A stretch of DNA of 64,000 nucleotides, from the IMG/VR virus record IMGVR_UViG_3300020577_009873, positions 4,638 to 68,637 of that record. One strand, 5' to 3'. How positions within the stretch are numbered: position 1 is the stretch's first letter; each line of letters starts with the position of its first letter. This DNA comes from a virus (taxonomy: Duplodnaviria; Caudoviricetes). Below the pieces are notes generated by a model. That model was not told the DNA's origin, ran no database searches, and saw only the letters and a list, made by a program, of their open reading frames with translations. A program made the translations under genes and the position numbers. Below, piece after piece: positions 49,096-61,221 of the stretch.

Positions 49096-50796
49096 ATGTC
49101 GACATATAGTTTAACAGACAATAAAATATCACTAACATATCAACGAATACTACAAATTTCGGACGGAGGAGATAATAATCCATCAGGAATTATATATGAT
49201 GGACTCGGAAATAAAATAACAATAGATTCCTCAAATATTGGACCAGGTGTAGGATTTCAAGGATTTCAAGGAGAAGTTGGACAATTAGGTTTTCAAGGTC
49301 CATTAGGTGGAGGAACAGGATCACAAGGATATCAGGGATTTCAAGGAGAAGTTGGACAATTAGGTTTTCAAGGTCCATTAGGTGGAGGAACAGGATCACA
49401 AGGATATCAGGGATTTCAAGGATATCAAGGAAATCAGGGAATGACTGGCCTTCCGGGAATGCAAGGACTTCAAGGTGTTCAAGGATTTATTGGATCAACC
49501 GGTACTCAAGGTATTCAAGGACTTCAAGGTCTTCAGGGAATTCAGGGATTCATAGGAATAACTGGACTCGAAGGACTTCAAGGTGTTCAAGGATCAATCG
49601 GTATTCAGGGATTTCAAGGGCAGGGTATTCAAGGATCAACTGGAATTGGGGGTGTTCAAGGATTTATTGGACCAACTGGTATTCAGGGATTTCAGGGTAG
49701 TCAGGGGATTCAGGGATTTATTGGTACAACAGGTATTCAGGGATTTCAAGGTCACCAAGGTTTTCAAGGACAGGGTGTTCAAGGCACTCAAGGTCTTCAG
49801 GGGATTCAAGGATTTATAGGGGTGACAGGTCTTCAGGGTATACAGGGTCTTATAGGAACAACTGGTTCACAAGGTATTCAGGGATTTCAAGGGCTTATAG
49901 GGGCAACCGGCCAAGGTATTCAAGGATTTATTGGATCAACGGGTGCCCAAGGTATTCAAGGTATTCAGGGATTCGAAGGTGTTCAAGGATTTATAGGACC
50001 AACTGGTCAAGGAAATCAGGGCAGTCAAGGAACACAAGGTTTACAAGGAATTTTAGGAGCAACAGGACAGGGTGTACAAGGTTTTCAAGGGCTTTTCGGA
50101 CCAACTGGATTTCAAGGGGTTCCGGGATTAGGATTTCAAGGTGATCAAGGATTTCAAGGAACTCAAGGTCTTATAGGACCAACTGGCCAAGGAAATCAAG
50201 GCAGCCAAGGACCAATAGGATTAAGTGGGATGGGCAATCAAGGACCTATAGGACCAACAGGTGACCAGGGACTACAAGGTGTTCAAGGACCAATTGGTGT
50301 TCAAGGAACACAAGGTATTGGCTATCAAGGATTTCAAGGAAATATAGGTCCGACCGGACAAGGGTTTCAAGGATTTGTTGGATCAACAGGTAGTCAAGGT
50401 GTTCAAGGATTATTTGGCAATCAAGGGTTTCAAGGAATAGGATCATTAGACAAAATAATTACAGTAAATATTGATTCTAGCCCAAATTATATATTAGCTG
50501 GGTCAAAATGTCAAGTAAGCATTACTTATAATTGCACGGCTTCTAAATGGACGATATTGTCAGATGATATTGGAAATATACAATTTGATGTTAAAAAAAC
50601 AACATTTGCTGAGTATCCAACATTTTCATCAATTACAAATTTTAATTATCCTGGGTTATCATCACAAAGTAAAAATTATAATACAATACCTGGATGGGAT
50701 ATAATAAATGAGGATGATATTTTAGAATTTAGTGTAATAAATGATAGCACTATTAAAAAATTAAGTCTAATAGTAAAATTACAACAATATCCCTAA
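49096..50796 (+). CDS. collagen-like (G-X-Q repeat) fibre protein
   Basis: about 400 aa of interrupted GFQ/GIQ/GPT triplets. Confidence 0.85.
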   Translation: MSTYSLTDNKISLTYQRILQISDGGDNNPSGIIYDGLGNKITIDSSNIGPGVGFQGFQGEVGQLGFQGPLGGGTGSQGYQGFQGEVGQLGFQGPLGGGTGSQGYQGFQGYQGNQGMTGLPGMQGLQGVQGFIGSTGTQGIQGLQGLQGIQGFIGITGLEGLQGVQGSIGIQGFQGQGIQGSTGIGGVQGFIGPTGIQGFQGSQGIQGFIGTTGIQGFQGHQGFQGQGVQGTQGLQGIQGFIGVTGLQGIQGLIGTTGSQGIQGFQGLIGATGQGIQGFIGSTGAQGIQGIQGFEGVQGFIGPTGQGNQGSQGTQGLQGILGATGQGVQGFQGLFGPTGFQGVPGLGFQGDQGFQGTQGLIGPTGQGNQGSQGPIGLSGMGNQGPIGPTGDQGLQGVQGPIGVQGTQGIGYQGFQGNIGPTGQGFQGFVGSTGSQGVQGLFGNQGFQGIGSLDKIITVNIDSSPNYILAGSKCQVSITYNCTASKWTILSDDIGNIQFDVKKTTFAEYPTFSSITNFNYPGLSSQSKNYNTIPGWDIINEDDILEFSVINDSTIKKLSLIVKLQQYP

Positions 50797-51015: not shown

Positions 51016-53388
51016 TTAATTAAGTGTTAATAATGCTTTTACTTGTACGTTATCAGGAATAGATGCCGGAGTAAATCTTATAAATGTCGTCTCGTTGCCT
51101 TTATCTGTTGTATTATAAGTTGTCCAGTTACTTCCACCATCAGTTGTTTTTTCCCAAGTTCCAGTTCTCGTTACAGAGTCATCCGTGTCTAAAATTCCAT
51201 TAGTAATAGCATTGTATAGTCTTATCTTTAATGTTGGTACAGCGCTACCAAAAGCAATTGCGTGCTTCCATGCAAACGTTTTTGTTACCTTACTAGATAA
51301 GTCAGCACATGATAAATAATGACTATCCTGTGTATCAGTTGACGCATCTTCATAAACACATGTTACCGAATATAAACGTCTAGGAACGCAAAACTCACCT
51401 AATACTTCAAACGTAAACATAAACTGAATATAGTCGCTTGGTGATGCACCAGTTAAATCACCGTTTATAGTTTCTGTCCAACTTCCAGAATTATCATCTA
51501 TACCCGATGTTCTATAATACATTCTTATTGGTTCGGGTGTATATCCTAAAAGAAAATCACCAACATATTGATTGGTAGCCATATATGCCCTATATAAAGC
51601 AGAGGCACCTAATGTTGATAATTTAGGTGTAATGACTCTTTGATTTGAATTATCTGCATAATAACCATCTGCTCCAATATTTAGCACAAGAAACCAGTTT
51701 AGACCAGTCGTTGTAACGTTTGGCATAGCAAACATTCTACCACCCTCAGTCCAAATAGATAAAGCAGCTGTTGAAAATAAGGCATCAACAGCACCTGAAT
51801 TTGTTGTAGTAAGTTTAGTTCGGTTATTTATTTGTCCAAATATCTTTTCAAATTGTGGATTACTTGGATCATAATTACAAGTATATGTTCCGTGTCTTCC
51901 TGCTAAAGTAGTAGAGATTAAAAATTTACCAATTGAATCACTATAGTCTATTTGCAAAAATGCTGAAGTAGCTAAGTTTGTAGTAGTACTACCAGGTGGA
52001 TTCTCAACCATCGAGTCTGCTAACCAGGCGCCACCACCATCCGTAATTGATGAAATAGGACAACGATAAACTCTTGTTAAAGTAACAAAAAATAAAGCTT
52101 TTACACCAGCTGCTGGGCCTAAAGTTGGCGTACATATTCTACCATTATTAACCTGCTGTACTGTACCAGTAACAGTCTGTATAGCTGTTTTATATGACCA
52201 AGCACCAGTTGCATAACCGGTAACTACTGTTAAGGCAGCTCTCATATTAAACCTATGTGCCCTAACTGAAGTTGTATTATCTAAATTTAATAAATATTCA
52301 TCATGTGATGTAGCGGTTCCATTTCCATCATCTGTTAATCCTATTGCGTTTGCCATTAACCCACTATATAAGGTATGTACTCCTGATTGTGATACTGAAG
52401 TATTTACTGCAGCACCACCAAGAGTTGCAGAAACGGTAAATGTATCAGACGTAGGTACTGTCAAAACATAATATGCGGTATTCACTGTAAGTCCAGTTGG
52501 TAAAGCACCTGTAGTTGAGAACATTACAACATCACCAATAATATAACCGTGTCCTACTGCAGTAAACACACCTGGCGACGCTATTGTTACGGTAACAGTT
52601 ACGGGAGCTTTGTCTTTTAATAGATATGATGCTCGTAAATTATCAGTGTTTGTTGCCTCTACTATTGTTGTACCACCTATTTGGAATACACCTGGATTTA
52701 AGCCTTTTATTAAATGTATACCGCCGTTATACAAAGTAGCGTTTGTACAAACCACACCTAATCTTATTTCTTCAATAACATATGCCGTAGCACCTGGTAA
52801 ATTAACAGATCCGGAAATAGTTAAAGATGTATTACTAGCAATAGCTGAAATATCATACCAAGATGAAACCAAAGTCGGATCTGTTGTGCCAAATCCAATC
52901 CTTGCACCTGCCGCTATTCTATCTGAAGTAAATAAAGTGTTACTACCTGTAATTGTTGAAGAGGTTCCAGATGTTGAAACCGTACCATCAGTGTGCATTG
53001 ATACATCAGTACGCAAAGAACGTATTGTTTTAGCACCAGCAAAGGTAGTACCGGATAAGGTGATAAATCCATTCCAAGATATTGTGTTTGTGGATGAATT
53101 ATACGTAAACATCGCAATAGTTCTTGTAACTGCTGCCGTAGCATTCGTACCAGCAAATATCCAAAAAATAGTGGGTGACCATTGATATACGTGTGGACAA
53201 AAATAAGAAGATAACGTAACCTCTACCATATTAATCATAGTAGGTGGTGGAACAGTTACATACTCATCTAGTGTTGTTGCTCCTGTATATTGTTTAAACA
53301 AAGACCCAATTATAGTTTTAGTGGCATCATATCCATCAGTTGTTAAAATAGTATCACCAGTAAAAACATGCTCTACAGCTTTTTTCAT
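51016..53388 (-). CDS. putative tail or fibre protein
   Basis: T/G/S-rich; HGYIIGDVVMFSTTGALPTGL...YYV module; higher GC than flanks. Confidence 0.6.
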   Translation of the reverse strand: MKKAVEHVFTGDTILTTDGYDATKTIIGSLFKQYTGATTLDEYVTVPPPTMINMVEVTLSSYFCPHVYQWSPTIFWIFAGTNATAAVTRTIAMFTYNSSTNTISWNGFITLSGTTFAGAKTIRSLRTDVSMHTDGTVSTSGTSSTITGSNTLFTSDRIAAGARIGFGTTDPTLVSSWYDISAIASNTSLTISGSVNLPGATAYVIEEIRLGVVCTNATLYNGGIHLIKGLNPGVFQIGGTTIVEATNTDNLRASYLLKDKAPVTVTVTIASPGVFTAVGHGYIIGDVVMFSTTGALPTGLTVNTAYYVLTVPTSDTFTVSATLGGAAVNTSVSQSGVHTLYSGLMANAIGLTDDGNGTATSHDEYLLNLDNTTSVRAHRFNMRAALTVVTGYATGAWSYKTAIQTVTGTVQQVNNGRICTPTLGPAAGVKALFFVTLTRVYRCPISSITDGGGAWLADSMVENPPGSTTTNLATSAFLQIDYSDSIGKFLISTTLAGRHGTYTCNYDPSNPQFEKIFGQINNRTKLTTTNSGAVDALFSTAALSIWTEGGRMFAMPNVTTTGLNWFLVLNIGADGYYADNSNQRVITPKLSTLGASALYRAYMATNQYVGDFLLGYTPEPIRMYYRTSGIDDNSGSWTETINGDLTGASPSDYIQFMFTFEVLGEFCVPRRLYSVTCVYEDASTDTQDSHYLSCADLSSKVTKTFAWKHAIAFGSAVPTLKIRLYNAITNGILDTDDSVTRTGTWEKTTDGGSNWTTYNTTDKGNETTFIRFTPASIPDNVQVKALLTLN

Positions 53389-53538
53389 TTAAATAATTAA
53401 TTTTTAATATCAAATTATATAGTAAAATATATCATGTACATTTTATATAAAGCGGAAAAATTATTTAAATAAAAAAACTTTTCGTATATTTGAAAATATA
53501 TAAAAAGAGAGATTAAAAATTTAATATATAAAAAAAGA

Positions 53539-53570
53539 TTTGGTGGGTAGAAAAGTTCGCCGTATCTTTG
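53539..53570 (+). promoter_or_regulatory. Bacteroidota sigma-A promoter for the His/Phe/Trp module
   Basis: TTTG-N20-TATCTTTG. Confidence 0.8.
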
Positions 53571-53597
53571 TGAAACAAATAATAAAAAGAAAAAATC

Positions 53598-53693
53598 ATG
53601 TCATACGTTAGTAAACATAAACATTTTAGCAAATTCCATTTTTGGTTTAGTACCAAGAGTTCGGGAGCTAATATTGTTTTGCCTAATGTGTAA
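53598..53693 (+). CDS. His/Phe/Trp leader peptide MSYVSKHKHFSKFHFWFSTKSSGANIVLPNV
   Basis: 3 His, 4 Phe and 1 Trp within codons 7-17; GAGTTCGGG pairs with terminator arm CCTGAACTC. Confidence 0.88.
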   Translation: MSYVSKHKHFSKFHFWFSTKSSGANIVLPNV

Positions 53694-53716
53694 TGGTGAA
53701 AATAAAAGTATTAGAT

Positions 53717-53747
53717 AAACCTGAACTCGAAAAGTTCAGGTTTTTTT
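53717..53747 (+). terminator. His/Phe/Trp attenuator terminator
   Basis: AAACCTGAACT-CGAAA-AGTTCAGGTTT followed by TTTT. Confidence 0.9.
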
Positions 53748-53767
53748 ATTGCTAAAAATTTATTATT

Positions 53768-54391
53768 ATGAGAGAAATTAAAGAAAATACGTACAAGGGA
53801 ACAAGAATTCTATTAGGAAATGAAAAAAGAGATTTAATTAATAGAATGATAGATGTTCTAAAAGATAGAGGATATATGGAAATTCAAATTCCAATTATTC
53901 AAAATCTAGAAACCTTTAGAAATAAGGTAGGTGATGAAAATAGAAATATGATGTTTTTATTTTCTGATAGAGGAAATAGAGAATTGTGTTTGGCTCCTGA
54001 ATATACCGCGGTAATTCAGTCATTGAGTGATACATTCAAATATAGTAAAGATGTTAAATTGTTCTATGTTCAAGAATGTTTCAGAGGTGAAAGACCACAA
54101 GCAGGTAGATACAGACAGTTTACACAATTAGGTGTAGAGATAATTAATCCAAGTATGGATTATGTTGAAGAACTTTCTTCATTAGCACTCGAACTAGTGT
54201 CAAATGGTAATGTTGATAGATTCAAAGTAGATATGAGTGTTACAAGAGGATTAGATTATTATAAAGATGGAAAAGGATTTGAAATATCCTGTGATGAATT
54301 AGGAGCTCAAAAACAAGTGTGTGGTGGGGGTGAATATGATGGTGGAATTGGGTTCGCGATTGGAATTGATAGAATATTGTTGATTAATTAA
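53768..54391 (+). CDS. hisS: minimal histidyl-tRNA synthetase (catalytic domain only)
   Basis: KGTR, LAPEYTA, FRGERPQAGRYRQFTQLGVE, RGLDYY, GGGEYD, GFAIGIDRI. Confidence 0.88.
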   Translation: MREIKENTYKGTRILLGNEKRDLINRMIDVLKDRGYMEIQIPIIQNLETFRNKVGDENRNMMFLFSDRGNRELCLAPEYTAVIQSLSDTFKYSKDVKLFYVQECFRGERPQAGRYRQFTQLGVEIINPSMDYVEELSSLALELVSNGNVDRFKVDMSVTRGLDYYKDGKGFEISCDELGAQKQVCGGGEYDGGIGFAIGIDRILLIN

Positions 54392-54395
54392 ATAT

Positions 54396-54483
54396 GGTGG
54401 TATTAGTGTCAGCGGTGAGTCTGAAAAGACGAGCACGATACTCTGTGAAAGTATTAGCACCGGTTCAAATCCGGTATATCACC
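54396..54483 (+). tRNA. tRNA-His(GTG) with D-loop hairpin insertion
   Basis: G-1/C73; ATACT-CTGTGAA-AGTAT; T-loop TTCAAAT. Confidence 0.85.
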
Positions 54484-54488
54484 CAAAA

Positions 54489-54564
54489 GGAAGCGGTAGC
54501 TCAGTCAGGTAGAGCAGCGGGGCCAAAATCCCGCGTGTCAGTGGTTCAAATCCATTCCCTTCCA
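54489..54564 (+). tRNA. atypical tRNA with 8-nt anticodon loop (contains CCA; identity uncertain)
   Basis: normal D and T arms; GCGGG-GCCAAAAT-CCCGC; bulged acceptor stem. Confidence 0.65.
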
Positions 54565-54569
54565 CAAAT

Positions 54570-54653
54570 GGTGCAGTAGCTGAGGTGGTGGCGAAAGCCT
54601 ATAGCGCTTGGTCTGAAAAACCAGAGACACCGGTTCGAGCCCGGTCTGTACCA
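54570..54653 (+). tRNA. tRNA-Phe(GAA) with D-loop hairpin insertion
   Basis: GGTGCAG/CTGTACC; TGGT-CTGAAAA-ACCA. Confidence 0.85.
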
Positions 54654-54658
54654 CATAA

Positions 54659-54734
54659 GGTGAACAAGCTAACTTGGTAGAAGCGCCAGACTGAAAATCT
54701 GGAGGATCCGGATCGTAACCGGAGTTCACCACCA
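54659..54734 (+). tRNA. tRNA-Phe(GAA)
   Basis: GGTGAAC/GTTCACC with ACCA; CCAGA-CTGAAAA-TCTGG. Confidence 0.9.
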
Positions 54735-54737
54735 AAT

Positions 54738-54811
54738 GGTGTCTGTAGCTCAATCGGAAGAGCGCAAGTTTGTGGAACTTGAGGCAGCGGGATCGAAACC
54801 CGTCAGACACC
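54738..54811 (+). tRNA. tRNA-His(GTG)
   Basis: G-1/C73; CAAGT-TTGTGGA-ACTTG. Confidence 0.9.
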
Positions 54812-54818
54812 CAAACAT

Positions 54819-54900
54819 ACATCCGCTCATAAGCGTGACCAGCCGGTTCCAACCCGGTAATGCGTAAGCGTGGTTAAGAGTTCGAATCTCTTCGGGTGTT
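54819..54900 (+). tRNA. atypical tRNA(CCA) with reduced D-arm and long variable arm
   Basis: ACATCCG/CGGGTGT; GCCGG-TTCCAAC-CCGGT; AAGAG-TTCGAAT-CTCTT. Confidence 0.7.
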
Positions 54901-54908
54901 CAAAACAT

Positions 54909-54979
54909 ACGTTTGTGGTGCAATGGTAGCATATCGGTCTCCAAAACCGCAGATTCGGGTTCGAGTCCTGACAAGCGTA
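54909..54979 (+). tRNA. tRNA-Trp(CCA)
   Basis: ACGTTTG/CAAGCGT; CGGT-CTCCAAA-ACCG. Confidence 0.88.
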
Positions 54980-55038
54980 CAAATAGGAATACCCAACAGG
55001 GTAAAAAATTATCAGATGAAACTAGAAAAAAATGTCAA

Positions 55039-55782
55039 ATGCTAAAAAAGGAAAAAAATATAAAATACCTAGTGGGGATTCAGCCGACAGGGAAGCTAAC
55101 AATAGGTAACTACCTAGGTTGTTTAAAGAAAGGCCTAAGGCTTCAAGAGGAAGGGCATGATGTTACCTTCTTGATAGCAAACTACCATTCTCTAACAACT
55201 GATAGTTATACTGATGTAACTGAACAGGAATTAATTAAATTAGGTTGTAAGAATATAAAAAGACAAATTCCTGAATATACTGAGTTGTTTTTCAAACTAT
55301 GTTGTAAGTTAAACTTGGGAACATTATTGAAAATGCCTCAATATAAAGACAAAAAGGAAAATGTAGAATTTGACTTGGGATTGATGTTATATCCTGTATT
55401 AATGGCAGCTGATATCATCATTAACGACCCAGATGTAGTAATTGTTGGTAAAGACCAAATAGCTCACTTAGACCTATGTAATGATATTTCTAAGAGATTT
55501 AATGGTAAGTATTACAATTATGAATTAGGTGATGTAGATAAGATTATGTCATTGGCTGATCCAACAAAAAAGATGTCAAAATCTTTGGGAGAAAAACATG
55601 TTCTTTATATCTTTGATGAAAACTATGAAGCAAAAATAAAAAAGGCAAACGCCAACGAAGAGGGTCTTGAAAATCTAAAAAAGATTGGAACAGGAATCGG
55701 AGTTGATGTTGATAAATATGAAATGAATTCTGATTTAAAGAAGGCTATTTCAGACAAAATGAATGAAATTTTTAACAAGTAA
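55039..55782 (+). CDS. trpS: compact tryptophanyl-tRNA synthetase
   Basis: GIQPTGKLTIGNYLG, YPVLMAADI, VGKDQ, KKMSKS; the longer track start overlaps tRNA-Trp. Confidence 0.92.
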   Translation: MLKKEKNIKYLVGIQPTGKLTIGNYLGCLKKGLRLQEEGHDVTFLIANYHSLTTDSYTDVTEQELIKLGCKNIKRQIPEYTELFFKLCCKLNLGTLLKMPQYKDKKENVEFDLGLMLYPVLMAADIIINDPDVVIVGKDQIAHLDLCNDISKRFNGKYYNYELGDVDKIMSLADPTKKMSKSLGEKHVLYIFDENYEAKIKKANANEEGLENLKKIGTGIGVDVDKYEMNSDLKKAISDKMNEIFNK

Positions 55783-55786
55783 TAAA

Positions 55787-55843
55787 ATGACAACAATTAA
55801 AAACATAAAAAAATCTAAAAAACGAATAAAAATGATTCGATAG
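55787..55843 (+). CDS. Lys leader peptide MTTIKNIKKSKKRIKMIR
   Basis: six AAA codons; TGATTCG pairs with terminator arm CGGATCA; four tRNA-Lys downstream. Confidence 0.8.
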   Translation: MTTIKNIKKSKKRIKMIR

Positions 55844-55862
55844 ATAAGCTATTACCTTAACT

Positions 55863-55898
55863 AACCCGGATCAGATTAATTTTCTATCCGGGTTTTTT
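55863..55898 (+). terminator. Lys attenuator terminator
   Basis: AACCCGGAT...ATCCGGGTT followed by TTTT. Confidence 0.85.
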
Positions 55899-55920
55899 AT
55901 ATATAAAATAAAAAAAAATT

Positions 55921-56343
55921 ATGCAAAAAACATATGAATGCAAAGAAATTAATGGATATGAAAATTATTTAATATCTACAAACGGTGATGTTTATAATAA
56001 AAAAACAGGCCGTAAAATGAAAACTAGAATAACCAAAACTGGATATGTAGATGTTTCTATTTGTAATGAAAAAGGAGCTAAAACATTTTTAATACATCGA
56101 CTTGTGGCGATGACACATATTGATAATGTATTTAATAAGCCCTTTGTCAATCATAAGGATCATGATAGAAAAAATAATAATGTTAGTAATCTAGAGTGGG
56201 TGACAGCAGAAGAAAACTCAAATCATATGTTTAGAAAAAAGAAAAAAGGGACTATTTCAAAAACTAAAATTATTGATATTTATGAAAGTAAAAAATGGAA
56301 AAATGTTGAGGATTTTTATAAAGAAATAATTGATAAATATTAA
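55921..56343 (+). mobile_element. NUMOD4-HNH homing endonuclease
   Basis: YLISTNGDV; IHRLVA...VNHKDHDRKNNNVSNLEW. Confidence 0.9.
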
Positions 56344-56416
56344 CCTCTTGTAGCAAACTGGCAGTAGGCAACGGTCTTTTAAACCGTGGGGCCGGGTTCG
56401 ATTCCCGGCGGGAGGA
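56344..56416 (+). tRNA. tRNA-Lys(TTT)
   Basis: ACGGT-CTTTTAA-ACCGT; T-loop TTCGATT. Confidence 0.88.
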
Positions 56417-56421
56417 CAAAT

Positions 56422-56505
56422 TCCTTCGTAGCAAAATTGGTAAGGCGCTTGACTTTTAATCAAGAGTCCGAAAGGACATTCCGGGTTCGAGTCCCGGCGG
56501 GGGAA
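56422..56505 (+). tRNA. tRNA-Lys(TTT) with long variable arm
   Basis: CTTGA-CTTTTAA-TCAAG followed by GTCC-GAAA-GGAC. Confidence 0.85.
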
Positions 56506-56508
56506 CAA

Positions 56509-56580
56509 GATCTTGTAGTTTCAATGGTAAAACCACTGGCTTTTAACCAGTATTTCTGAGTTCGAGTCTCGGCGGGATCA
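56509..56580 (+). tRNA. tRNA-Lys(TTT)
   Basis: ACTGG-CTTTTAA-CCAGT. Confidence 0.88.
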
Positions 56581-56585
56581 CATAT

Positions 56586-56656
56586 TCCCTCGAAGCATTA
56601 AGGTGATGCTCAAGTCTCTTAAACTTGAGAACACGGATCGTTACCGTGCGGGGGAA
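56586..56656 (+). tRNA. tRNA-Lys(CTT)
   Basis: CAAGT-CTCTTAA-ACTTG; T-loop ATCGTTA. Confidence 0.85.
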
Positions 56657-56674
56657 CAAAAAAAAATTAAAATT

Positions 56675-56911
56675 ATGGAAACGCTAACAACAATAAGAGA
56701 AAGATTAGAAACACATTATGAAGGTGTTTATAGAAAGATATGGGTTCAAGGCAGTGCTCGTCATGGTCAAAATGATATTTTATTAACTCTATTTCCTTCA
56801 AATAGTGACGGATATAAGATTGTATCTATGCGAAAGTTAAGAAATATTTCATTTGAAGAAGTGCTCACAGTACTACAAAGAGAATTAAGCATCACAAATA
56901 TATTAGAGTAA
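56675..56911 (+). CDS. hypothetical protein (start METLTT)
   Basis: ATG after an A-rich leader downstream of the tRNAs. Confidence 0.6.
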   Translation: METLTTIRERLETHYEGVYRKIWVQGSARHGQNDILLTLFPSNSDGYKIVSMRKLRNISFEEVLTVLQRELSITNILE

Positions 56912-56926
56912 TTTAATATATAATGG

Positions 56927-57934
56927 ATGAGGTATATTAAAAAATATGAATCTTATAATAAACTTGATGAAATATTAGATATATTTTTTGATCTTGAAGA
57001 AGAAGGATATTCGGTTAAAAGTGCAGAATCAAAAATAGTTGAAGATAGGGATGATTGGGGTGTAAATAATCTAAGATATGTTTATGGTAAAAAATTTATA
57101 AATTATAATAAGGATGTAATATTATCCAAAGGAGGGAAAGTCTATAAGGTTAAGGATGCTATTATTGTCAGAATATCAAAGACACATTATATAAAAAATC
57201 TGACAGATCGAAAAATAATAAAACATTGGAAAATACTAGACTCTGAAATATCTAAAAAAACAGATGTTATAAAAGAGAGATCTGAATTTTTAGGCTTAAA
57301 TTTATATGGAGTCATGGCTGAATGGTATCAACTTGGAAAGGCATCACATATAAAATCATCAGATGAGCCATATTTTGGTTATGATATGATTAATGACTGT
57401 TATACATTTGCATTTTATCCATCCGAAAAAGTACTTGAAAAATTTTATAATCCACCATCTGAAATAAAAGAAAAACTGCACTCTATTGTGAATGACTTAC
57501 TATCTAAATATGAAGGTGGTAAGCCATTTTTTGACGCATTGGATGATGCTATTAAGGATGTTTATAATGAAGATATGATTCTTGCTTTATTAAAGGGCAA
57601 TTCAAATGAATGGATAGCAGCATCTGGTGGATTTGGAGATAGGGTCTATAACCTATGGAAAAGGGGAAAATTTAGGTGTAAAGGAATAGTTGTCTTCAAT
57701 GGTAAAATGATGACAAATAAAACCGGAGTAAACAATTGGTATCCACCAGATTTCGATTTATCAAACAAGGATTATGTATATGTAGATGATTCTTATTTTT
57801 CTGGTGGAACTGCAAGAAAAATAAATGGATTTTTATCTGAACACAATTCAAAAATTAAACACGTATCTGTTATATATGACGGATCAAAGGAAAAAAGCAA
57901 ACTAGTTAAATCATTTTTTAGATACTACAAATGA
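56927..57934 (+). CDS. phosphoribosyltransferase-domain protein with N-terminal MRYIKKYE tag
   Basis: PRPP-binding motif YVYVDDSYFSGGT. Confidence 0.7.
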   Translation: MRYIKKYESYNKLDEILDIFFDLEEEGYSVKSAESKIVEDRDDWGVNNLRYVYGKKFINYNKDVILSKGGKVYKVKDAIIVRISKTHYIKNLTDRKIIKHWKILDSEISKKTDVIKERSEFLGLNLYGVMAEWYQLGKASHIKSSDEPYFGYDMINDCYTFAFYPSEKVLEKFYNPPSEIKEKLHSIVNDLLSKYEGGKPFFDALDDAIKDVYNEDMILALLKGNSNEWIAASGGFGDRVYNLWKRGKFRCKGIVVFNGKMMTNKTGVNNWYPPDFDLSNKDYVYVDDSYFSGGTARKINGFLSEHNSKIKHVSVIYDGSKEKSKLVKSFFRYYK

Positions 57935-59872: not shown

Positions 59873-59903
59873 TTTGGTGGGAATAAAAAAAATCGTATCT
59901 TTG
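59873..59903 (+). promoter_or_regulatory. Bacteroidota sigma-A promoter for the Ser/Arg module
   Basis: TTTG-N19-TATCTTTG; closely similar to the promoter at 53539. Confidence 0.8.
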
Positions 59904-59939
59904 TGAAAACAAAGGAATAAAAATATAATATATACAATT

Positions 59940-60005
59940 ATGAAAATGGTTAATACAAATACAAGTTCGTCACGTAGTTCTAACAGCTCGAAAATTCGAA
60001 GTTGA
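59940..60005 (+). CDS. Ser/Arg leader peptide MKMVNTNTSSSRSSNSSKIRS
   Basis: 8 Ser codons of five kinds plus CGT and CGA; AAATTCGAAGTT pairs with the terminator arm. Confidence 0.9.
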   Translation: MKMVNTNTSSSRSSNSSKIRS

Positions 60006-60032
60006 TTGTATTTCTATTGCTATACAATATTG

Positions 60033-60059
60033 AACCTCGAATTTAATTCGAGGTTTTTT
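60033..60059 (+). terminator. Ser/Arg attenuator terminator
   Basis: AACCTCGAAT-TTA-ATTCGAGGTT followed by TTTT. Confidence 0.9.
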
Positions 60060-60066
60060 GTTTTAT

Positions 60067-60139
60067 GGTTCCATCGTCCAACTGGATAGGACATGACCCT
60101 GCGAAGGTTAAGATATGAGTTCGAATCTCATTGGGACTT
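60067..60139 (+). tRNA. tRNA-Arg(GCG)
   Basis: TGACC-CTGCGAA-GGTTA; T-loop TTCGAAT. Confidence 0.88.
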
Positions 60140-60145
60140 CAAATT

Positions 60146-60234
60146 GGTGAGTTAAGCAGCTACATTGGAGTGGCGACCAGCTTTGAAACCTGGGTTTCGT
60201 TAAATCGGATGGGGGTCGGGTCCTCAGCTCACCG
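60146..60234 (+). tRNA. atypical tRNA-Ser(TGA)
   Basis: GGTGAGT/GCTCACC; CCAG-C-TTTGAAA-C-CTGG; long variable arm; T-loop GTCGGGT. Confidence 0.7.
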
Positions 60235-60238
60235 CAAT

Positions 60239-60326
60239 GGAGGGATGGCAGAGTTGGTCTATTGCACCTGACTTGAAATCAGGAGGTCGGGCAACCGATC
60301 CGTGGGTTCGAATCCTACTCCCTCCT
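60239..60326 (+). tRNA. tRNA-Ser(TGA)
   Basis: CCTGA-CTTGAAA-TCAGG; long variable arm. Confidence 0.92.
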
Positions 60327-60331
60327 CAAAT

Positions 60332-60404
60332 GTTCTTGTAGCTCAACGGTTAGAGTTTTCCGCTTCGAACGGAAAGGATGTAGGTTCGAATCCTACCAAG
60401 AATT
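60332..60404 (+). tRNA. tRNA-Arg(TCG)
   Basis: TTCCG-CTTCGAA-CGGAA. Confidence 0.88.
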
Positions 60405-60453
60405 CAAAAAAATTGAACTCACATTTTAATATATAGTGAAAATATGAGTTCAA

Positions 60454-61026
60454 ATGAAATACACAGTATATAAAATAACAAATTTAATAAACGGTAAAAT
60501 TTATATCGGAGTTCATAAAACAGAAAATTTAGACGATGGATATATGGGATCTGGTAAAAATATAAAAAGAGCTATTGACAAATATGGAATTCAAAATTTT
60601 AAAAAAGAATATATTAAAATATTTGACAATCAAGAAGATATGTTTAAAATGGAGTCTGAGTTGGTAAATGAGTTATTTTTATCTAGTCGTGAGAATTATA
60701 ATATAATGAAAGGAGGCCATGGAGGATTTGAACATATAAATAAAAATTGTTGGGATAAAGAAAGTAGAAAAAATCATTTACAAAAAATATACAATTTGGT
60801 TTCAGCTGAAAAAAGAAAGGATATCGGAGCATATATGGGTAAAAATTTTGGAGGTAGTAATAGATTAAGAGAGGATGTAATAAATTATAGATTAAAAATA
60901 CTCGAAACAGTTGACATGTCTAAATATGGTTGGGTAGAAAAAGCTAGTAAATTACTAAATATAACCCATACACAAGTTAGGAGATTTGTAAATAAATATT
61001 ATACGGGGGAATATTATAGAAGATAA
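60454..61026 (+). mobile_element. GIY-YIG (Seg-like) homing endonuclease inside the tRNA array
   Basis: TVYKITNLINGKIYIGVH...YMGSG...YN. Confidence 0.88.
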
Positions 61027-61115
61027 GGAGAGTAAAGTAGCCAGGGTGCTACCACCGCCTGCTAAGCGAGTGGATCGGGTAACTGATTACGTTTCGAGCA
61101 CGTTGCTCTCCTCCA
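61027..61115 (+). tRNA. tRNA-Ser(GCT) with 8/4 fold
   Basis: 8-bp acceptor GGAGAGTA/TGCTCTCC, 4-bp T-stem, 5-bp D-stem, encoded CCA. Confidence 0.8.
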
Positions 61116-61116
61116 T

Positions 61117-61205
61117 GGTAAAATACCCAAGAGGATGTAAGGGGCTCGCTTGGAAAGCGAGTAGGTCGGGAAACTGGCGCATGAGTTCGAATCTCATTTT
61201 TACCG
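61117..61205 (+). tRNA. tRNA-Ser(GGA)
   Basis: CTCGC-TTGGAAA-GCGAG; long variable arm. Confidence 0.9.
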
Positions 61206-61221
61206 CGAAAAAATTAAAATT

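What the first reader, a model, noticed from the sequence alone, without database searches (positions are those of the whole stretch)
53539..55782. One leader senses three amino acids (His, Phe, Trp) and heads an operon of exactly His, Phe and Trp components
Codons 7-17 read H K H F S K F H F W F. GAGTTCGGG (53657-53665) pairs with CCTGAACTC (53720-53728). Cargo: HisRS, 2 tRNA-His, 2 tRNA-Phe, 2-3 CCA-bearing tRNAs and TrpRS, with nothing else. This is a multivalent OR-gate comparable to ilvGMEDA or thr leaders, but controlling tRNAs and synthetases.
Basis: partly seen in the sequence, partly recalled or inferred. Interest (0 to 1): 0.88.

Follow-up and report, generated by a model that had tools for sequence, protein, structure and literature searches.

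The report
Codon-matched attenuators control phage tRNA arrays
A huge bacteriophage places a tiny His/Phe/Trp-rich reading frame and a switchable terminator in front of its own His, Phe and Trp tRNA and synthetase genes, and its relatives do the same with other matching codon sets before other tRNA clusters, which looks like a built-in sensor that makes tRNAs on demand.

Summary

- **The leader.** Window 53598-53693 is a 31-codon ORF whose codons 7-17 read HKHFSKFHFWF. It is followed by a 1:2 / 2:3 / 3:4 set of alternative helices and an intrinsic terminator. Then come a mini-HisRS, seven tRNA or tRNA-like genes (His, Phe, Trp) and a mini-TrpRS.
- **The source.** The window comes from a huge phage with Bacteroidota-type promoters.
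- **Relatives.** A pattern scan found 113 related leaders, 87 of them unique units.
  - In 87/87 the leader segment that pairs with the terminator's 5' arm fits its own terminator better than foreign ones.
  - An alignment of 29 shows compensatory changes in 6/10 antiterminator pairs and 10/12 terminator pairs.
  - 317 of 331 tRNAs behind these leaders are Phe, His, Lys or Trp.
- **Other leader classes.** Neighbouring tRNA arrays carry their own codon-matched leaders: Ser/Arg, Asn/Leu/Met/Thr/Val/Cys/Ile, Gln/Pro/Asp, Tyr/Glu/Ile/Gly/Ala and Lys. Two of these lie in this window. The true leader-to-array pairing beats all other 5039 permutations.
- **Prior description.** I found none in eight literature searches.

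My reading is a new variant of ribosome-mediated attenuation in which tRNA genes are the regulated cargo. Confidence is about 0.8.

The parts
53539..53570 (+). Bacteroidota-type promoter-like element: TTTG (53539-53542), 20-nt spacer, TATCTTTG (53563-53570)
   Evidence: Read. TAnnTTTG occurs in the 100 nt upstream of 76 of 81 related leaders, against a background of 0.11 per 100 nt. That this is the Bacteroidota consensus is recalled, not tested.
53598..53693 (+). Leader ORF, 31 codons plus stop: MSYVSKHKHFSKFHFWFSTKSSGANIVLPNV
   Evidence: An ORF of 28-40 codons with an ATG at the same place occurs in 113 of 114 pattern hits. The ATG is invariant in 29/29 aligned sequences.
53616..53648 (+). 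Regulatory codons 7-17: 3 His (CAT), 4 Phe (TTT/TTC), 1 Trp (TGG), 2 Lys, 1 Ser
53626..53646 (+). Segment 1: 5' strand of the anti-antiterminator, overlapping the Phe-Ser-Lys and His-Phe-Trp-Phe codons
   Evidence: MFE folds (z -5.2 and -5.1). The homologous helices are 89% paired in alignment A1.
53652..53671 (+). Segment 2: pairs with segment 1, or through its core 53657-53665 (GAGTTCGGG) with segment 3
   Evidence: Fold of 53652-53731 gives -22.6 kcal/mol, z -4.4, with 53657-53665 paired to 53720-53728. Covariation.
53717..53750 (+). Intrinsic terminator: 5' arm 53717-53727 (segment 3), loop 53728-53732, 3' arm 53733-53743 (segment 4), T run to about 53747
   Evidence: Compensatory changes in 10 of 12 pairs in relatives.
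53768..54391 (+). Mini HisRS-like gene (207 aa): catalytic core only
   Evidence: Pfam hit. Aligns to residues 8-166 and 224-316 of a 423-aa HisRS, so the insertion domain and the C-terminal anticodon-binding domain have no counterpart.
54394..54488 (+). Atypical tRNA-His-like element (GUG in a 7-base loop) with an enlarged D region
   Evidence: Rfam tRNA 26.3 bits, below threshold. Fold. Loop read.
54489..54565 (+). tRNA with an abnormal anticodon loop (6 or 8 bases, contains CCA); identity unresolved
   Evidence: ARAGORN '???'. Rfam tRNA 38.5 bits. Fold.
54570..54654 (+). Atypical tRNA-Phe-like element (GAA loop) with an enlarged D region
   Evidence: ARAGORN calls it Tyr(ata). Rfam tRNA 31 bits. 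Loop CUGAAAA read.
54659..54734 (+). tRNA-Phe (GAA)
   Evidence: 51 bits.
54739..54812 (+). tRNA-His (GUG)
   Evidence: 60.5 bits.
54813..54908 (+). tRNA-like element with a UUCCAAC loop (CCA), acceptor stem and T arm, and a non-standard body
   Evidence: Fold. No ARAGORN or Rfam hit.
54909..54980 (+). tRNA-Trp (CCA)
   Evidence: 61.1 bits.
55039..55782 (+). Mini TrpRS-like gene (247 aa)
   Evidence: Pfam hit. Aligns to residues 11-226 of 337-aa TrpRS chains.
55787..55843 (+). Second leader ORF, Lys-rich (MTTIKNIKKSKKRIKMIR), starting 5 nt after the TrpRS stop
   Evidence: A related mini-leader MKTK[LMR]KYKR precedes Lys arrays in 23 of 24 unique intergenic regions of relatives.
55864..55898 (+). 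Second terminator (ACCCGGAT ... ATCCGGGT plus T run). An alternative pairing of UGAUUCG in the leader's last codons with CGGAUCA is predicted.
   Evidence: Folds (z -4.5 for the full unit, -3.7 for the partial unit).
55921..56343 (+). HNH/NUMOD4 homing-endonuclease gene inserted between the second terminator and the Lys tRNAs
   Evidence: Pfam HNH_3 and NUMOD4.
56344..56657 (+). Four tRNA-Lys genes (UUU x3, CUU)
59873..59903 (+). Promoter-like element of the third unit: TTTG ... TATCTTTG
   Evidence: Read.
59940..60005 (+). Third leader ORF, Ser/Arg-rich: MKMVNTNTSSSRSSNSSKIRS
   Evidence: There are 29 unique homologous leaders. Ser columns are invariant while codons switch between the AGY and TCN boxes.
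60032..60060 (+). Third terminator (11-bp stem, 3-nt loop, T run)
   Evidence: Fold. The leader segment AATTCGAAGTTG pairs with its 5' arm.
60067..61206 (+). Arg/Ser tRNA array (Arg GCG, Ser UGA, Arg UCG, Ser GGA, plus unrecognised tRNA-like elements), interrupted by an ORF of about 190 aa

Best explanation
This is a ribosome-mediated transcription attenuator, the same mechanism as trpL, hisL or pheM, that controls a phage operon of tRNA genes and two minimal aminoacyl-tRNA synthetases.

Proposed sequence of events:
1. Transcription starts at a Bacteroidota-type promoter (53539-53570).
2. A ribosome translates the 31-codon leader.
3. If charged tRNA-His, tRNA-Phe or tRNA-Trp is scarce, the ribosome stalls in codons 7-17. 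That keeps segment 1 (53626-53646) from pairing with segment 2 (53652-53671).
4. Segment 2 then pairs with the terminator's 5' arm (53657-53665 with 53720-53728). The terminator cannot form, and RNA polymerase reads on into HisRS, the tRNAs and TrpRS.
5. If decoding is fast, the ribosome runs through segment 2 to the stop codon, which lies in the apical part of the antiterminator. The 1:2 and 3:4 helices form and transcription ends at the T run.

The products (tRNAs and the enzymes that charge them) relieve the stall, so the circuit is a negative-feedback, demand-driven supply of decoding capacity for exactly the codons in the leader.

The element belongs to a family in huge phages in which successive tRNA arrays each have their own codon-matched leader.

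Shown from sequence: the ORF, the helices, covariation and the codon-to-anticodon match. Inferred: translation of the leader, stalling, and regulated read-through.
For: Anatomy in the window:
- The full leader folds into 1:2 plus the terminator (-39.5 kcal/mol, z -5.1). The stretch left free by a stalled ribosome (53652-53731) folds into the antiterminator (-22.6 kcal/mol, z -4.4).
- Only 20 nt separate the T run from the HisRS start, so there is no room for a promoter.

Conservation:
- 113 of 114 pattern hits keep an ATG ORF of 28-40 codons.

Antiterminator:
- In 87 of 87 unique units the leader pairs better with its own terminator 5' arm (mean -12.7 kcal/mol) than with dissimilar arms of other units (mean -7.9). 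The median rank is 0.
- The pairing segment always starts 10-17 nt after the TGG codon.
- On alignment A1 (29 diverse sequences), 85% of cells are paired, 6 of 10 pairs have compensatory changes, and 24 cells show double changes against 8.0 +/- 2.2 in shuffles (0/500). Slid controls reach at most 51% paired.

Terminator:
- 91.3% paired, 10 of 12 pairs compensatory, 0/500.

Anti-antiterminator:
- 89% paired.

Fold states:
- The full-length MFE contains the terminator in 87/87.
- The stalled-state MFE pairs at least 70% of the 5' arm upstream in 62/87.

Cargo match:
- 317 of 331 ARAGORN tRNAs in the first array behind 85 unique leaders are Phe, His, Lys or Trp.

Family:
- Other arrays in the same loci have their own leader plus terminator with matching residues.
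- For 7 classes the true pairing is the single best of 5040 permutations, at amino-acid and at codon level, for the whole ORF or for codons 2-22.
- Codon-level detail: all 11 Ile codons in class E are ATA, with tRNA-Ile(UAU) downstream. All 3 in class C are ATT, with tRNA-Ile(GAU) downstream.

Coding signature independent of my search pattern:
- In 28 Ser/Arg leaders, three columns are 28/28 or 25/28 Ser while the codon switches between the AGY and TCN boxes.

Other:
- Promoter motif in 76/81.
- A weak Rfam Thr_leader resemblance (26.1 bits, E 0.07) is only a hint.
Against: There is no experimental or read-level evidence of translation, stalling, termination or read-through. RNA-library contigs of a related strain span the region but cannot show RNA ends.

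Limits of the homologue set:
- It was collected with a pattern that fixes 26 bases of the leader. Conservation of the H-K-H-F-S-K and W-F-S codons among hits is therefore by construction.
- For the same reason covariation in the 1:2 helices is weak: 3 pairs, with 4-17 of 500 shuffles reaching the observed values.

Results that fall short:
- The stalled-state MFE shows the antiterminator in 62 of 87 units, not all.
- For other classes the own-versus-foreign terminator test is mixed: B 22/31, C 5/5, D 2/2, E 3/5, F 1/3, G 2/2.
- Not all conserved codons are matched. Leader A carries many Ser codons (278 counted in codons 6-22 of 63 leaders), but only 6 Ser tRNAs sit in its arrays.
- 16 of 72 Arg codons in class B are AGR, with no tRNA-Arg(UCU) in the array.
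- In relatives the Lys mini-leader is followed by a hairpin without a T run.
- 86 of 211 array starts, as I defined them, have no detected terminator-plus-ORF unit. Many of these gaps come from tRNAs that ARAGORN misses or from inserted endonuclease genes.
- The regulatory codons are few per amino acid: 1 Trp, and 2-3 His in most relatives.
- Transcription-translation coupling in the presumed Bacteroidota host is assumed.
Confidence: 0.8

Rival explanations
1. The small ORF is an independent gene for a conserved 28-40-aa peptide that acts in trans and has its own terminator. The tRNA operon is expressed by constitutive leakage through that terminator or from an unrecognised promoter.
For: The peptide has a conserved N-terminus, M-[RK]-T-[IN]-N, and a partly conserved C-terminal G-T-x-x-V-L stretch. 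Leader peptides with trans functions are in print (peTrpL; abstracts seen in the listing).
Against: This does not explain why the leader segment complementary to the terminator's 5' arm co-varies with it. It does not explain why seven unrelated-looking peptides each mirror the tRNA set behind them. Only 10-25 nt separate the T run from the first gene in most units. The C-terminal conservation coincides with the antiterminator strand.
Confidence: 0.05
2. The element is an RNA-only switch or processing signal: a riboswitch, a protein- or tRNA-binding leader such as a T-box, or an RNase site. The reading frame is incidental.
For: The RNA is strongly structured (z about -5). Much of the conserved 'coding' sequence lies in helices. 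aaRS genes in Firmicutes are controlled by tRNA-sensing T-box RNAs (established knowledge, recalled).
Against: No Rfam riboswitch or T-box match appears in 53000-57000 at E up to 1. The ATG is invariant and the frame is open in 113/114. Ser columns switch between AGY and TCN codons while staying Ser. Codon sets match anticodon sets across classes, including ATA versus ATT for the two Ile tRNAs. An RNA-only model predicts none of these.
Confidence: 0.07
3. The element is real, but what it responds to is global translation status (any slowing of ribosomes, for example early versus late infection) rather than the specific supply of His, Phe and Trp tRNAs. The codon match reflects shared ancestry or codon bias.
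For: There are few regulatory codons per amino acid. Ser, Lys, Thr and Gly codons without matching tRNAs are also conserved in leader A. All classes share the N-terminal M-[RK]-T-I-N, suggesting descent from one ancestral leader.
Against: Shared ancestry would make the classes alike. Instead they have diverged so that each matches its own array, giving the best of 5040 permutations. The rare residues His and Trp appear only in the class whose arrays hold His and Trp tRNAs.
Confidence: 0.06
4. Chance: an AT-rich intergenic region happens to contain a short ORF with His/Phe/Trp codons next to a terminator.
For: Short ORFs are common: 309 of 20-80 aa in the window. Two others reach 7 His/Phe/Trp in 11 codons.
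Against: Conservation in 87 unique units, covariation, and the family-wide codon match.
Confidence: 0.01

Closest known systems
pheM leader of the E. coli pheST (phenylalanyl-tRNA synthetase) operon
   Same: A short leader ORF rich in cognate codons, followed by an alternative antiterminator/terminator, controls a gene of the translation apparatus (an aaRS) rather than a biosynthetic pathway. This is established knowledge, recalled and not checked in a paper here.
   Different: pheM senses one amino acid and controls a cellular synthetase. Here the main cargo is tRNA genes, the sensor covers three or four codon families, the owner is a phage, and there is no sequence relationship (no Rfam leader family reaches threshold).
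Multivalent leaders thrL (Thr+Ile) and ilvL (Ile, Val, Leu) of enterobacterial biosynthetic operons
   Same: One leader ORF mixes codons for several amino acids, so shortage of any of them can give read-through. The 1:2 / 2:3 / 3:4 architecture is the same. The only Rfam hint in the region is Thr_leader at 26.1 bits against a gathering score of 55.
   Different: Those leaders regulate enzymes that make the amino acids. Here the regulated products are the decoders themselves. Multivalency goes much further in sister classes, about 8 amino acids in the Asn/Leu/Met/Thr/Val/Cys/Ile/Arg leader. The host range is Bacteroidota-type, not Proteobacteria.
T-box riboswitches upstream of aaRS genes in Firmicutes
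   Same: They provide feedback control of tRNA-charging genes according to the charging state of a specific tRNA, through a terminator/antiterminator choice.
   Different: A T-box binds uncharged tRNA directly, without translation, and reads a single specifier codon. Here an ORF is conserved, no T-box match is found, and many codons are read by the ribosome.
Classical single-amino-acid attenuators hisL, trpL and pheL
   Same: Same mechanism and geometry: regulatory codons lie in segment 1 and the stop codon lies before segment 3 (passages of PMC3082878 on pheL seen).
   Different: Those have runs of one codon, such as seven Phe or His. Here 1-4 codons of each of several kinds are interleaved, and the cargo differs.

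Membership tests
Ribosome-mediated (leader-peptide) transcription attenuator | Short ORF with a start codon in the 5' leader, upstream of the regulated genes | tested here: met
   ORF 53598-53693. Kept in 113/114 relatives, with the ATG invariant in 29/29.
Ribosome-mediated (leader-peptide) transcription attenuator | Regulatory codons cognate to the regulated function | tested here: met
   8 of 11 codons are His/Phe/Trp, placed before His/Phe/Trp tRNAs, HisRS and TrpRS. 317/331 downstream tRNAs in relatives are Phe/His/Lys/Trp. Class-level permutation gives 1/5040.
Ribosome-mediated (leader-peptide) transcription attenuator | Intrinsic terminator between the leader ORF and the first regulated gene | tested here: met
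   53717-53743 plus T run. 91.3% paired, with 10/12 pairs showing compensatory changes.
Ribosome-mediated (leader-peptide) transcription attenuator | Antiterminator (2:3) mutually exclusive with the terminator | tested here: met
   53657-53665 pairs with 53720-53728. 87/87 fit their own arm better than foreign arms. 6/10 pairs are compensatory, 0/500 shuffles.
Ribosome-mediated (leader-peptide) transcription attenuator | Anti-antiterminator (1:2) whose 5' strand overlaps the regulatory codons | tested here: met
   MFE folds. 89% paired in A1, but covariation is weak because my search pattern fixes the 5' strand.
Ribosome-mediated (leader-peptide) transcription attenuator | Read-through rises when the cognate charged tRNA is limiting and depends on leader translation | not testable with these tools
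   This needs reporter assays, 3'-end mapping or ribosome profiling. RNA-library contigs were uninformative.
Rfam leader families (Thr_leader, His_leader, Trp_leader, Phe_leader and others) | Covariance-model score at or above the curated gathering score | tested here: not met
   The only hit is Thr_leader at 26.1 bits against 55 (E 0.07). No other leader family appears at E up to 1. The element works like these families but is not a member of any curated one.
T-box riboswitch | Match to the T-box model (specifier loop, T-box antiterminator bulge) | tested here: not met
   No T-box hit in 53000-57000 at E up to 1.

The most novel reading that the evidence does not exclude
Huge phages carry a modular regulatory code. 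Every tRNA array is headed by a leader that spells out, codon by codon, the anticodons behind it. The phage therefore measures the host's decoding capacity for each codon family separately and switches on replacement tRNAs, and in this window also minimal synthetases, only where decoding fails. One situation in which this would help is when host tRNAs are scarce for the AT-rich phage genes. Another is when they are cut by anticodon-nuclease defence systems. In the second case the leaders would be sensors in a counter-defence circuit.
Probability: 0.3. Interest if true: 0.95.

Novelty: new variant of a known kind. Interest (0 to 1): 0.88.

Why it matters
tRNA genes are usually thought to be controlled by growth-rate and stringent signals, and phage tRNAs are treated as constitutive helpers for codon usage. 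A codon-matched attenuator in front of each tRNA array would be the first case I know of in which tRNA supply is set by direct feedback from the ribosome reading the same codons.

It would show that leader-peptide attenuation can integrate up to about eight amino acids. It would also give a testable handle on why huge phages carry dozens of tRNAs and truncated synthetases.

Practically, the leaders predict which tRNAs form one transcription unit. They help to identify atypical tRNAs that gene finders miss. They also offer compact, programmable sensors of decoding capacity for particular codons.

Tried and rejected
- **Loose first pattern.** MATTTTAGY-N12-TGGTTTA gave more than 116 mostly chance hits. 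Only L005 and L017 were real. I replaced it with a 26-base pattern.
- **Prokaryote genomes.** The same pattern in 185,579 prokaryote species genomes gave 0 hits. This gives no host clue and no sign of a cellular origin.
- **RNA evidence.** The look-up of sequencing runs was unreachable twice and then answered. Laying four RNA-library runs gave only assembled contigs of a strain a few percent different from the window. These span promoter, leader, terminator and HisRS in one piece. Contigs cannot show RNA ends or levels, and DNA carry-over is possible, so nothing follows for or against attenuation.
- **E. coli precedent.** I half-remembered that the E. coli tRNA-Phe gene pheV has a Phe-rich leader. 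The 190 nt upstream of pheV in MG1655 (read from position 380 of the locus, with the ORF list covering 400-600) show no such ORF. I dropped that as a precedent.
- **Literature.** Eight searches found no paper that links leader peptides or attenuation with phage tRNA genes.
  - The main text of the huge-phage paper PMC7162821 has 0 occurrences of 'attenuat', 'leader' or 'terminator'.
  - Its supplements, and those of other papers, could not be seen and might bear on this.
  - Subscription-journal papers are not in the library.
- **Within-class co-variation.** I looked at His, Phe and Lys codon numbers against tRNA numbers within class A. One lineage with a single His codon has no detected His tRNA and three Ser tRNAs. 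ARAGORN misses and relatedness make the table anecdotal, and I draw nothing from it.
- **Frame-stop counts.** Frame 0 is open by definition of the span, so only the contrast with about 1.9 and 2.8 stops in the other two frames is informative.
- **Not run.** I made no structure predictions or large protein searches for the two mini-synthetases. They would not change the verdict on the leader.

Full report
**What is at the coordinates**

The window is AT-rich phage DNA. Its nearest named relatives are three uncultured phage genomes of 635-735 kb: LR756502, LR745206 and LR756501. The paper that described them predicts Bacteroidetes hosts for the genomes above 634 kb (passages of PMC7162821). The window's own record is a 68.6-kb linear fragment.

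Between a minus-strand 790-aa ORF ending at 53388 and the finding's genes lies a 380-nt spacer. In it I read the following.
- A promoter-like TTTG (53539-53542), a 20-nt spacer and TATCTTTG (53563-53570).
- A 31-codon ORF at 53598-53693, MSYVSKHKHFSKFHFWFSTKSSGANIVLPNV.
- A hairpin at 53717-53743 followed by a T run.

GAGTTCGGG (53657-53665) is complementary to CCTGAACTC (53720-53728), which is the 5' arm of that terminator.

Twenty nucleotides after the T run starts a 207-aa HisRS-like gene. Then come seven tRNA or tRNA-like elements (His, an unresolved one, Phe, Phe, His, a CCA-loop element, Trp). Last is a 247-aa TrpRS-like gene ending at 55782. Four of the seven RNA elements are atypical, and their assignment rests on my reading of the loops.

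**Folding**

The whole leader folds into a long hairpin in which the Phe-Ser-Lys and His-Phe-Trp-Phe codons (53626-53646) pair with 53652-53671. The terminator forms alongside it (-39.5 kcal/mol, z -5.1).

The part that a ribosome stalled on codons 7-17 would leave free, up to the terminator's 5' arm (53652-53731), folds into a different hairpin. Its base is the 53657-53665 / 53720-53728 pairing (-22.6 kcal/mol, z -4.4). This is the 1:2, 2:3, 3:4 geometry of classical attenuators.

Rfam finds nothing above threshold. The only hint is Thr_leader at 26.1 bits against a gathering score of 55.

**Relatives of the leader**

The three named relatives have a homologous small ORF plus terminator directly in front of tRNA arrays. 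A 26-base pattern from the conserved core found 18 viral and 92 metagenomic stretches and none in 185,579 prokaryote species genomes.
- Of 114 hits, counting the window and the three named genomes, 113 keep an ATG ORF of 28-40 codons.
- The pattern fixes the H-K-H/N-F-S-K and W-F-S codons, so their conservation among hits proves nothing.
- The evidence that is independent of the pattern is the ATG (29/29 in alignment A1), the open frame, the helices and the cargo.

**Covariation**

For 87 unique units I compared how well each leader pairs with its own terminator 5' arm and with the dissimilar arms of other units.
- Own arm: mean -12.7 kcal/mol. Foreign arms: mean -7.9 kcal/mol.
- The own arm is better than the mean foreign arm in 87/87, with median rank 0.
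- The pairing segment always begins 10-17 nt after the TGG codon.

On alignment A1 (29 diverse sequences):
- The antiterminator has 85% of cells paired and 6 of 10 pairs with compensatory changes. It has 24 doubly changed cells against 8.0 +/- 2.2 in shuffles (0/500), and slid controls reach at most 51%.
- The terminator has 91.3% paired and 10 of 12 pairs compensatory.
- The 1:2 helices are 89% paired but barely co-vary. That is expected, because one strand is fixed by my pattern.

The full-length MFE contains the terminator in 87/87. The stalled-state MFE pairs at least 70% of the 5' arm upstream in 62/87.

In most units the leader's stop codon lies inside the apical part of the antiterminator. 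A ribosome that reaches the stop would therefore hinder it, as in trpL. This last point is inference from the folds.

**Cargo in relatives**

ARAGORN finds 331 tRNAs in the first contiguous array behind 85 unique leaders.
- 108 are Phe, 87 His, 85 Lys and 37 Trp, which makes 317.
- 6 are Ser and 8 are odd calls.

Order and copy number are shuffled between loci, so the set is kept while the array is rebuilt. The family consensus K-H-K-H-F-S-K-S-S/N-K-W-F therefore mirrors a Lys/His/Phe/Trp array.

The window lineage (window, L125, L154) is a derived form. It reads K-F-H-F-W-F at the corresponding place, and a mini-HisRS sits directly behind the terminator. The only other lineage with a HisRS-like gene in that position is L201. 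In the window the Lys tRNAs sit behind a second leader.

**A family of codon-matched leaders**

The flanks of the same loci hold further arrays, each with its own ATG ORF plus terminator.

| Leader core | tRNAs downstream |
|---|---|
| ...SSSRSS... | Arg(ACG/UCG/GCG) and Ser(UGA/GCU/GGA) |
| ...NLNMNLNNTLNMVNTLCIR... | Asn, Arg(UCU), Ile(GAU), Leu, Thr, Cys, Val, Met |
| ...PQIQDQDQP... | Gln, Pro, Asp |
| ...IEAIGYAYEAG... | Tyr, Glu, Ile(UAU), Gly, Ala |
| ...AYYYEGE... | Tyr, Glu |
| ...IGSGIIAIGAG... | Ile(UAU), Gly |
| MKTK[LMR]KYKR | Lys arrays (23 of 24 unique spacers) |

Two of these classes are in the window.
- The Lys-rich MTTIKNIKKSKKRIKMIR (55787-55843) starts 5 nt after the TrpRS stop. 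A terminator follows at 55864-55898, then an inserted HNH gene and four Lys tRNAs.
- The Ser/Arg-rich MKMVNTNTSSSRSSNSSKIRS (59940-60005) has a terminator at 60032-60060 before the Arg/Ser array.

I took one representative per class, the unit with the longest array, for seven classes. The true leader-to-array pairing is the single best of 5040 permutations under four scorings: amino acid or codon level, and whole ORF or codons 2-22. 1/5040 is the smallest value this test can give. The class definitions are my own regular expressions.

At codon level:
- All 11 Ile codons in codons 6-22 of class E are ATA, with tRNA-Ile(UAU) downstream. All 3 in class C are ATT, with tRNA-Ile(GAU) downstream.
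- Class B uses CGN for 56 of 72 Arg codons, with tRNA-Arg(ACG/UCG/GCG) downstream.

In 28 Ser/Arg leaders, which were found by adjacency and not by a pattern, two columns are Ser in 28/28 and one in 25/28. In these columns the codon alternates between the AGY and TCN boxes. That needs at least two substitutions and marks selection on what the ribosome reads, not on the RNA sequence.

**Results that do not fit neatly**
- The own-versus-foreign terminator test is clear for classes C (5/5), D (2/2) and G (2/2). It is only partial for B (22/31), E (3/5) and F (1/3). Several of these classes share nearly the same terminator arm, which weakens the control.
- Leader A keeps many Ser, Thr and Gly codons with no matching tRNA in its array. 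Some of them lie in the helices.
- The Lys mini-leader of relatives is followed by a hairpin without a T run, so that unit may work differently.
- Of 211 unique array starts as I defined them (a gap above 130 nt), 125 have a detected terminator-plus-ORF unit. The other 86 are mostly Lys (33), Ser (13), Trp (8) and Met (7). Many of these gaps are caused by atypical tRNAs that ARAGORN misses or by homing-endonuclease insertions. The Met arrays appear to have no leader.
- No read-level evidence could be obtained.

**Mechanism**

My best reading is a ribosome-mediated attenuator whose regulated products are the decoders of its own regulatory codons. A shortage of charged tRNA-His, tRNA-Phe or tRNA-Trp stalls the leader ribosome, frees segment 2, forms the antiterminator and lets the operon be transcribed. 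Enough decoding capacity closes it.

Because the second leader follows the TrpRS stop with no room for a promoter, units 1 and 2 are probably tandem checkpoints on one transcript. This is inference.

A Bacteroidota-type TAnnTTTG motif lies 34-93 nt upstream of the ATG in 76 of 81 relatives, mostly 53-67 nt. The background is 0.11 per 100 nt. The identification of this motif with Bacteroidota promoters is recalled.

**Comparison with what is known**

Ribosome-mediated attenuation as a mechanism is long known. Multivalent leaders (thrL, ilvL) and a leader controlling a synthetase (pheM of pheST) are textbook cases, which I recall. T-boxes do a related job for aaRS genes without translation.

Three things are different here.
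- The cargo is tRNA arrays.
- The owner is a phage.
- The design is modular and codon-resolved across many arrays.

The element meets every sequence-level defining feature of the mechanism, but it is not a member of any curated Rfam leader family.

Eight literature searches found no description of leader peptides or attenuation for phage tRNA genes. The main text of the huge-phage paper does not contain the words. Supplements and subscription journals could not be searched.

**Verdict**
- Observation: confirmed.
- Interpretation: supported by comparative genomics, untested by experiment.
- Novelty: a new variant of a known kind.
- Interest: high.

Noticed in passing
window 53768-54391 and 55039-55782: Both synthetase genes are much shorter than cellular ones. 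The HisRS-like protein aligns only to residues 8-166 and 224-316 of a 423-aa HisRS. The TrpRS-like protein aligns only to residues 11-226 of 337-aa TrpRS chains. Both therefore seem to lack the anticodon-binding part. Whether they are active, and on which tRNAs, is open.
   Followed up: partly
window 54394-54488, 54570-54654, 54813-54908; also L176 and others: tRNA-like genes with normal acceptor stems, T arms and His/Phe/Trp anticodon loops, but with an enlarged or rebuilt D region. They sit next to a canonical tRNA of the same specificity. ARAGORN and Rfam miss or mis-call them. They recur in relatives (L176 upstream sequence).
   Followed up: partly
window 54489-54565; L125, L126, L129, L154, L218: tRNAs that ARAGORN reports with 2- or 4-base 'anticodons' (aa, taaa, ggaa, cc). 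That means 6- or 8-base anticodon loops, within the His/Phe/Trp/Lys arrays. Eight-base loops are what frameshift-suppressor tRNAs have (recalled). I did not pursue this.
   Followed up: no
window 53523-53534 and 59923-59935; just upstream of the ATG in most related leaders: A conserved TTTAATATATAA-like motif occurs next to the leaders. It also lies directly upstream of Met tRNA arrays that have no leader. It may be a second, phage-specific promoter or a processing signal.
   Followed up: no
window 55921-56343 and about 60456-61026; L121, L126, L134, L146 and others: Homing-endonuclease genes are inserted inside or between tRNA units: HNH/NUMOD4 here and GIY-YIG-like ORFs in relatives and at about 60456 in the window (my reading of the sequences). 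They often lie exactly between a terminator and the first tRNA.
   Followed up: partly
all leader classes: Leaders of all classes start alike, with M-[RK]-[TA]-[IN]-[IN]-N, whatever tRNAs follow. This suggests descent from one ancestral leader by duplication, or a shared requirement for translation start without a Shine-Dalgarno sequence.
   Followed up: no
window 49096-50796: A 566-aa ORF made almost entirely of G-x-Q-G-type collagen-like triplet repeats, next to a 790-aa ORF on the opposite strand with no Pfam match. They are probably virion fibre proteins.
   Followed up: no
window 53300-56700 in coded runs X16, X17: Two wastewater RNA-library assemblies hold a strain a few percent different from the window. 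It has the same leader, terminator and HisRS, but a different stretch of 1127 letters in place of 54655-55078. The tRNA array is therefore rebuilt even between close strains.
   Followed up: partly
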